Positions 59,025 through 59,062 of a DNA stretch of 64,000 nucleotides are shown here, piece by piece; position 1 is the first letter of the stretch; every line of letters begins with the position of its first letter. The notes beneath the pieces are model-generated. The model had not been told where the DNA came from. It ran no database searches and saw only the letters and a program-made list of their open reading frames with translations. The stretch covers positions 19,344,001 to 19,408,000 of the forward strand of contig OZ024763.1 in the NCBI GenBank assembly GCA_964016885.1, in the 5' to 3' direction. The stretch comes from Eledone cirrhosa (lineage: Eukaryota). A program made the translations under genes and the position numbers.

Positions 59025-59062
59025 CCTTTTGAAAAGCAGAAGAACTGCGAAACCGGTAAAGG
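59025..59062 (+). ncRNA. Hammerhead, family K, variant core UUGAAAA
   Basis: cctt-TTGAAAA-gcag aagaa ctgc-GAAA-ccgg-TA-aagg; stem III palindrome accggt. Confidence 0.75.

What the first reader, a model, noticed from the sequence alone, without database searches (positions are those of the whole stretch)
59025..59062. Family K: compensated core UUGANAA (C3U + G8A) in a 38-nt minimal hammerhead
Seen: 59025-59062 reads cctt-UUGAAAA-gcag aagaa cugc-GAAA-ccgg-UA-aagg; 53579-53615 (-) has UUGAGAA; 28291-28327 is a decayed UUGAAAA copy. Within the 7-nt core only the tolerant position 7 varies. Known: C3 and G8 form a tertiary Watson-Crick pair, and a U3-A8 swap preserves it. Inference: the double change is a structural covariation, which supports these folds being functional, and a standard CUGANGA search would miss the family.
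Basis: partly seen in the sequence, partly recalled or inferred. Interest (0 to 1): 0.75.

Follow-up and report, generated by a model that had tools for sequence, protein, structure and literature searches.

The report
Penelope-element hammerhead with U-A core swap
This is a hammerhead-ribozyme motif with a U-A pair in place of the usual C-G core pair, carried at the end of a jumping gene with over 11,000 copies in this genome; it likely cuts its RNA only in pairs and weakly, and the same swap is already published for such elements in blood flukes.

Summary
The motif is real. It is the minimal type I hammerhead in the pseudo-LTR of a young Penelope-like retrotransposon (RT plus C-terminal GIY-YIG, Neptune/Nematis-type linker). 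The 33-nt body occurs exactly 11,012 times in the genome. Intact units carry two copies, in sense, about 4.7 kb apart; the window copy is a lone 200-bp fragment. U3-A8 is not new: Cervera and de la Pena 2014 report about 1,300 such motifs in Schistosoma, one PLE-linked with the same UUGAAAA core. U3/A8 is fixed through six subfamilies, single changes at 3, 7 and 8 are rare and of similar number, and the exact young body gives no double. Weak support for selection comes from elsewhere: no subfamily change in core or helix III (p 0.03-0.11), stepwise gains in helix II, and one compensatory pair in helix I. U3 can pair with A17 and may trap the fold. Cleavage is untested and no RNA run was listed. 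The scan earlier noted PLE hammerhead ends in this genome; a sequence look-up found no note on this family.

The parts
59025..59062 (+). Minimal type I hammerhead motif, U3-A8 core, youngest subfamily (K0)
59029..59035 (+). Core box U3-A9 (UUGAAAA); U3 = 59029, A8 = 59034
59036..59048 (+). Helix II, 4 bp with 5-nt loop; G10.1-C11.1 closing pair
59052..59058 (+). Palindromic helix III ACCGGU plus A17; predicted cut between 59058 and 59059 (GUA)
   Evidence: cut site inferred from hammerhead numbering
58991..59188 (+). 5'-truncated pseudo-LTR fragment of the Penelope-like element, ending at the long 3' end
   Evidence: 92.6% match to the pLTR/5' UTR of intact unit L090; end classes
59189..59260 (.). 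(TA)n microsatellite at the 3' end of the insertion
   Evidence: same ending in L001-L030 as printed
53501..53653 (-). Second pLTR fragment, subfamily K1, 3-bp helix I, rare G at position 7
28272..28396 (+). Third pLTR fragment, subfamily K2, G12 lost (dead core)

Best explanation
The 38-mer is the U3-A8 minimal hammerhead motif in the pseudo-LTR of a young, very abundant Penelope-like retrotransposon, and in intact elements two copies likely pair through their ACCGGU palindromes into a double hammerhead that would cut, probably weakly, after GUA. Shown: sequence, copy number, parent element, sense orientation, two motifs per intact unit, fixation of U3/A8 across subfamilies. Predicted: the dimer fold and a competing U3-A17 pair. 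Inferred from the literature model: cutting at both pLTRs would release a unit RNA of about 4.7 kb, which may circularise and be copied past its own junction by the element's RT, with insertion at (TA)n by the GIY-YIG nuclease. The window copy is a solitary fragment with no same-strand intact partner in the window, so it is most likely inert.
For: Parent: L048 has 484-bp direct repeats (98%) flanking the ORFs, each with the motif. L088, L090 and L093 have ORF1 (409-410 aa stop to stop) and a 775-aa ORF2, with same-strand motifs 4,689, 4,679 and 4,712 bases apart. ORF2 hits Pfam RVT_1 (5e-07) and GIY-YIG (7.6e-05, residues 677-767), and has DKG and a CX4CxxC linker. All 150 scored nuclease hits were 98-100% identical, 21 of them in 775-aa open frames by my count. 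Many copies have an inverted 5'-truncated arm, as described for PLEs (PMC8557442 passages). Dimer: target fold -21.1 against MFE -22.5 kcal/mol; monomer target -0.4 against -7.5. Subfamilies: 0 of 17 core and helix III columns differ, against 19 of 110 columns overall. Helix II goes from U.U + 2 bp to 4 Watson-Crick pairs; helix I pair 4 goes A-U, A.G, C-G. Of 183 unselected copies, 70 end at +79 and 87 at +147 past the predicted cut, at TA-like sites, which fits copying through the junction. Precedent: PMC4209133 text and supplement.
Against: No cleavage or expression data. The conservation test is weak: hypergeometric p 0.030, Fisher against flanks p 0.11, and some upstream flank differences are probably indel shifts from ungapped anchoring. 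Pair counts on 12 chosen copies do not exceed shuffles (292 of 500). Subfamilies K1-K3 amplified with only 3 bp of helix I, and their dimer target lies 3.6-8 kcal/mol above the MFE; K5 lies 11 above it. Only 1 of 183 copies starts at the predicted cut, so cleavage leaves no genomic footprint. U3-A17 pairs with probability 0.58 in the predicted dimer ensemble. Published minimal PLE hammerheads cleave poorly in vitro, and Naiad PLEs thrive without canonical ones.
Confidence: 0.8

Rival explanations
1. Same element, but the motif is a non-cleaving relic or is kept for another role (RNA dimerisation signal, promoter or splice element). U3 and A8 would then be two drifted changes carried along by a successful lineage.
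For: Weak helices in older subfamilies, predicted U3-A17 trap and no ends at the cut site. The A/T-rich context makes C>T and G>A changes unsurprising (inference). A GT just before the cut and a pyrimidine tract with TAG about 95 nt downstream look like weak splice signals (seen output; untested).
Against: All core positions and the palindrome are unchanged over six subfamilies while helix II gains pairs stepwise. Of all double changes, the one present is the one known to keep activity (PMC3088659 passage).
Confidence: 0.17
2. The three window copies belong to a free-standing ribozyme repeat (retrozyme or SINE-like) rather than to an autonomous element.
For: The window holds only short non-coding fragments. 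Earlier scan notes describe retrozyme arrays in this genome (unchecked).
Against: The fragments match the pLTR of intact RT-nuclease units at 85-95%. Their 5' ends are scattered, as for truncated copies. No short head-to-tail hammerhead array was seen in the loci examined.
Confidence: 0.02
3. Chance resemblance to a hammerhead.
For: Monomer folding z-score -0.94; short stems; no Rfam hammerhead row among those shown.
Against: 0 of 100 shuffles match. The motif sits where PLE hammerheads are known to sit. A related element in the same genome (L044, 44% amino-acid identity) has a CUGAAGA motif with palindromic helix III about 385 nt after its stop (one copy, read by eye).
Confidence: 0.01

Closest known systems
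Minimal hammerheads of metazoan Penelope-like elements, U3-A8 variant of Schistosoma mansoni Cercyon (Cervera and de la Pena 2014, PMC4209133; main text parts 1-2 of 4 and supplement passages read)
   Same: Type I, in both pLTRs, short helix I, palindromic helix III region, many solitary truncated copies. S. mansoni(4) has the same UUGAAAA core; the S. japonicum row with similar helices has CUGAAGA.
   Different: Other host and PLE clade. About 11,000 near-identical copies against about 1,300 heterogeneous hits. No extra base between 9 and 10.1. A 6-nt palindrome rather than 4. N17 is A here (can pair with U3) and U in S. mansoni(4).
Natural U3-A8 hammerheads (Perreault et al. 2011, PMC3088659; passages read)
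   Same: U3-A8 core swap; the paper also reports natural U10.1-U11.1 closure and 2-bp stem II, as in subfamily K5.
   Different: The passages read do not place those examples in PLE pseudo-LTRs, and I did not see their sequences.
Neptune/Nematis-clade EN+ PLEs (Craig et al. 2021, PMC8557442; passages read)
   Same: RT then CX2-5CxxC linker then C-terminal GIY-YIG; DKG motif; pLTRs; inverted 5' copies; tail on one end; (TA)n targets.
   Different: The tail here is about 68 nt (+79 to +147) against the 30-40 quoted. A separate ORF1 overlaps ORF2 in the -1 frame. Neptune versus Nematis was not resolved by a tree.
G17 hammerheads trapped by C3-G17 (Kalweit and Hammann 2013, PMC3884650; passages read)
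   Same: A Watson-Crick pair between positions 3 and 17 stacking on helix I is the proposed cause of strong impairment in minimal hammerheads; U3-A17 is the analogous pair here.
   Different: The analogy is my inference. A U-A pair is weaker, and no U3/A17 measurement was seen in the passages read.

Membership tests
Hammerhead ribozyme (type I, minimal) | Core boxes N3-U-G-A-N-N8-A, GAAA and UH in type I order | tested here: met
Hammerhead ribozyme (type I, minimal) | Watson-Crick compatible 3-8 pair | tested here: met
   U3/A8; fixed in all six subfamily majorities
Hammerhead ribozyme (type I, minimal) | Helices I and II flank the core | tested here: met
   4 + 4 bp in the window copy; 3-7 and 2-4 bp across subfamilies
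Hammerhead ribozyme (type I, minimal) | Palindromic helix III allowing a double hammerhead | tested here: met
   ACCGGU; predicted dimer within 1.4 kcal/mol of the MFE, helix III pair probability 1.0
Hammerhead ribozyme (type I, minimal) | Covariation of 3 and 8 among homologues | tested here: inconclusive
   0 doubles with the young body; one C3-G8 copy among older types (L138), about what chance gives; no close C3-G8 sister family found
Hammerhead ribozyme (type I, minimal) | Match to an Rfam hammerhead model | tested here: inconclusive
   None among 150 of 457 rows shown
Hammerhead ribozyme (type I, minimal) | Self-cleavage after N17 | not testable with these tools
   Needs an assay or end-mapped RNA reads
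EN+ Penelope-like element | RT with C-terminal GIY-YIG nuclease | tested here: met
EN+ Penelope-like element | Pseudo-LTRs, partial tandems and inverted 5'-truncated copies | tested here: met
EN+ Penelope-like element | Hammerhead in the pLTR, sense to the ORF | tested here: met
Neptune clade | CX2-5CxxC linker before GIY-YIG, DKG motif, (TA)n target | tested here: met
   linker shared with Nematis
Neptune clade | RT phylogeny with reference Neptune and Nematis sequences | not tested
   No named reference set was available; homologues carry no clade names
Non-LTR retrozyme | Short non-coding head-to-tail hammerhead repeats | tested here: not met
   Same-strand pairs are 3.9-4.9 kb apart around coding sequence in the units examined

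The most novel reading that the evidence does not exclude
A highly successful PLE lineage uses a self-damped hammerhead. U3 switches between the active U3-A8 pair and an inhibitory U3-A17 pair over the cut site, and six successive source elements retuned helices I and II around an unchanged core. This would be a dated natural series for asking how much ribozyme activity a Penelope-like element needs.
Probability: 0.25. Interest if true: 0.55.

Novelty: new member of a known kind. Interest (0 to 1): 0.3.

Why it matters
The swap itself is known. The family matters modestly. It is a very large, young set of PLE hammerheads that CUGANGA-only descriptors (as used in PMC4209133's first pass and for the core search in PMC8557442) would miss. 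It comes with intact elements and a ladder of six natural versions, which makes the open question of what PLE hammerheads do easy to test with natural sequences. The predicted U3-A17 trap gives a specific, cheap experiment.

Tried and rejected
1. Path C3-G8 to U3.G8 to U3-A8 inside the lineage: suggested by G8 copies, rejected (older GCAT types, 1,122 hits; of the first 100 listed, 99 have A8 and 96 have U3). An earlier count said 100 of 100 for A8; 99 is correct. 2. L138 (CUGAAGA) as a surviving ancestor: one copy with broken helix I; about 0.1 doubles expected by rough arithmetic, so not significant. L139 and L141 are junction or deletion products. 3. Position 7 tolerance: no excess in young copies (32 G7 against 24 G8). 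An excess (10 against 3 and 2 per 100, by eye; p 0.0085) is not repeated (1 against 4 and 1), so it is left open. 4. Lower private variation in the core than in flanks was not used: the flanks include junctions and the groups were defined by helix letters. 5. L025's link to a different GIY-YIG ORF is a junction with another PLE, not the parent. 6. Search for a closer sister family with a 59%-identical nuclease query returned places largely shared; the metagenome scan found no relative. 7. No RNA holder listed. Contigs of three runs were laid; one contig of organism B covers the motif with changes at 11.2-12, too thin to use. 8. Przybilski and Hammann 2007 on 3-8 exchanges was not held; its result is known to me only as cited in PMC3088659. 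9. Literature searches found no report of this family or of a U3-A17 trap; subscription papers, Repbase, and file 1 of the PMC4209133 supplement were not seen. 10. bioRxiv 10.64898/2026.07.22.740005: five passages read, nothing on core variants. 11. The K2 representative had a private change that broke helix I, so its energy was not used.

Full report
Observation. The minus-strand copy has UUGAGAA with a 3-bp helix I. The 28294 copy has lost G12. A strict descriptor hits once in the window and never in 100 shuffles. The monomer is not unusually stable. No hammerhead family is among the 150 of 457 Rfam rows shown.

What it belongs to. The genome is 3.0 Gb with about 30 large contigs; 'octopus-like' is my inference and the wording of earlier notes, not a tool result. 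The 33-nt body occurs exactly 11,012 times, with 0 for the control. Following paired hits gave the parent. L048 has two 484-bp direct repeats around coding sequence, each with the motif in sense. L088, L090 and L093 hold ORF1 and a 775-aa ORF2, with same-strand motifs 4,679-4,712 bases apart. [quoted passage not shown] All 150 scored nuclease matches are 98-100% identical, so the family is young. The three window copies are 125-200-bp pLTR fragments, 85-95% identical to an intact unit. The one at 59025 ends in (TA)n.

Covariation test. With the young body, position 3 differs alone in 17 copies (9 C, 5 G, 3 A; only CCTT-flanked copies counted). Position 7 differs in 48 (32 G). Position 8 is G in 24 (counted by eye), and a shorter pattern gave 33 G8 hits, of which 10 were read and none had C3. 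No copy has both 3 and 8 changed. These are rare changes among more than 11,000 copies and look like neutral decay. A search for canonical cores with the same palindrome gave 101 hits against 154 in the control; a few had the K body. Of these, L138 is a true C3-G8 copy with a broken helix I, and the others are junctions. Older GCAT types (1,122 hits) still have A8 in 99 and U3 in 96 of the first 100 listed, which rejected my idea of a U.G intermediate. So U3/A8 predates all subfamilies found, and covariation can only be argued between families. One related PLE here (44% identity) has a C3-G8 motif after its ORF. In the supplement of PMC4209133, S. mansoni(4) has UUGAAAA where a similar S. japonicum motif has CUGAAGA.

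Subfamily ladder. From 236 distinct copies in the fetched loci (biased by the patterns that fetched them; 16 left unassigned), six groups form a nested series K5 to K0. Divergence in a downstream block is 10.4, 5.4, 5.9, 5.7, 4.0 and 2.4%. Core, loop II and helix III majorities never change. Helix II goes from U.U plus 2 bp, to G.U plus 2, to 3 and then 4 Watson-Crick pairs. Helix I goes from 7 bp to 3 bp plus A.G, then 4 bp, with pair 4 changing from A-U to C-G. Statistically this is weak: 0 of 17 core and helix III columns among 19 variable columns of 110 (p 0.030; Fisher against flanks 0.11; some flank differences are likely indel shifts), and pair counts on 12 chosen copies equal their shuffles (292 of 500). 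PMC3088659 reports natural U10.1-U11.1 closure and 2-bp stem II (passage), so K5 is not outside known hammerheads.

Mechanism. For the window copy the double-hammerhead fold is predicted at -21.1 kcal/mol against an MFE of -22.5, while the monomer target is -0.4 against -7.5. The MFE differs from the target only by pairing U3 with A17, at probability 0.58 in the ensemble (tertiary pairs are not modelled). A C3-G17 pair is the proposed cause of impairment in minimal G17 hammerheads (PMC3884650 passages), so U3-A17 may damp this one. That step is inference. Of 183 copies not selected by the motif, 70 end 79 nt and 87 end 147 nt past the predicted cut, at TA-like sites reaching into the 5' UTR; 1 starts at the cut. 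The template therefore runs through the cut site. This fits the circular or multimeric template model of PMC4209133, and fits an uncut RNA equally well. No RNA run was listed.

Comparison with what is known. PMC4209133 (parts 1-2 of 4 read, supplement file 2 searched, file 1 not available) reports U3-A8 in Cercyon PLE hammerheads with about 1,300 hits, and low dimer-dependent cleavage for a different, canonical family. PMC3088659 reports natural U3-A8 and cites prior in vitro activity; the cited paper was not held. Searches and one search found no description of this family. The scan's earlier notes describe PLE hammerhead ends and retrozymes in this genome (unchecked); a sequence look-up found none like this stretch.

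Verdict. A real motif and a new member of a known kind: a U3-A8 minimal hammerhead in the pLTR of a Neptune/Nematis-type PLE. I put the chance of measurable dimer cleavage at about 0.6. Interest 0.3, resting on the copy number, the subfamily series and the testable U3-A17 trap.

Noticed in passing
L090 3871-3958 (also L088, L091, L092, L093): ORF1 (400 aa from ATG, no Pfam hit for the L048 copy) overlaps ORF2 in the -1 frame. There is an in-phase U UUU UUA, a short spacer and a weak hairpin, and ORF2 has no Met before DKG. This suggests -1 ribosomal frameshifting. Craig et al. mention frameshifted ORF1 in some PLEs.
   Followed up: partly
window 388(-), 13183(-), 13352, 13860, 16537(-), 16677, 23072(-), 23173, 36805, 54407, 57147, 61628(-): Twelve canonical CUGANGA type I minimal hammerheads of other families, several in inverted pairs.
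   Followed up: no
window 58650-58990: Inverted pair of another repeat carrying GAAA, TA, a short hairpin and CTGATGA in an unusual order; the K fragment is joined to it at 58991. Topology not resolved.
   Followed up: no
L044 2140-2178: A related PLE (44% amino-acid identity) has a C3-G8 hammerhead-like motif with U.U closing helix II, like subfamily K5; my descriptor missed it.
   Followed up: partly
window 59056-59062 and about 59120-59149: Splice-like GT at the predicted cut and a pyrimidine tract with TAG downstream; D. virilis Penelope has an intron abutting its hammerhead.
   Followed up: no
window 53180-53345 and 53720-53885: Inverted pair of a G+C-rich hairpin repeat flanking the 53612 copy.
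   Followed up: no
L001-L030: Junctions between the inverted arm and the sense arm often fall at short shared words such as GGTGAG or GGT, suggesting microhomology-guided template switching; the sample is biased by the query start.
   Followed up: partly
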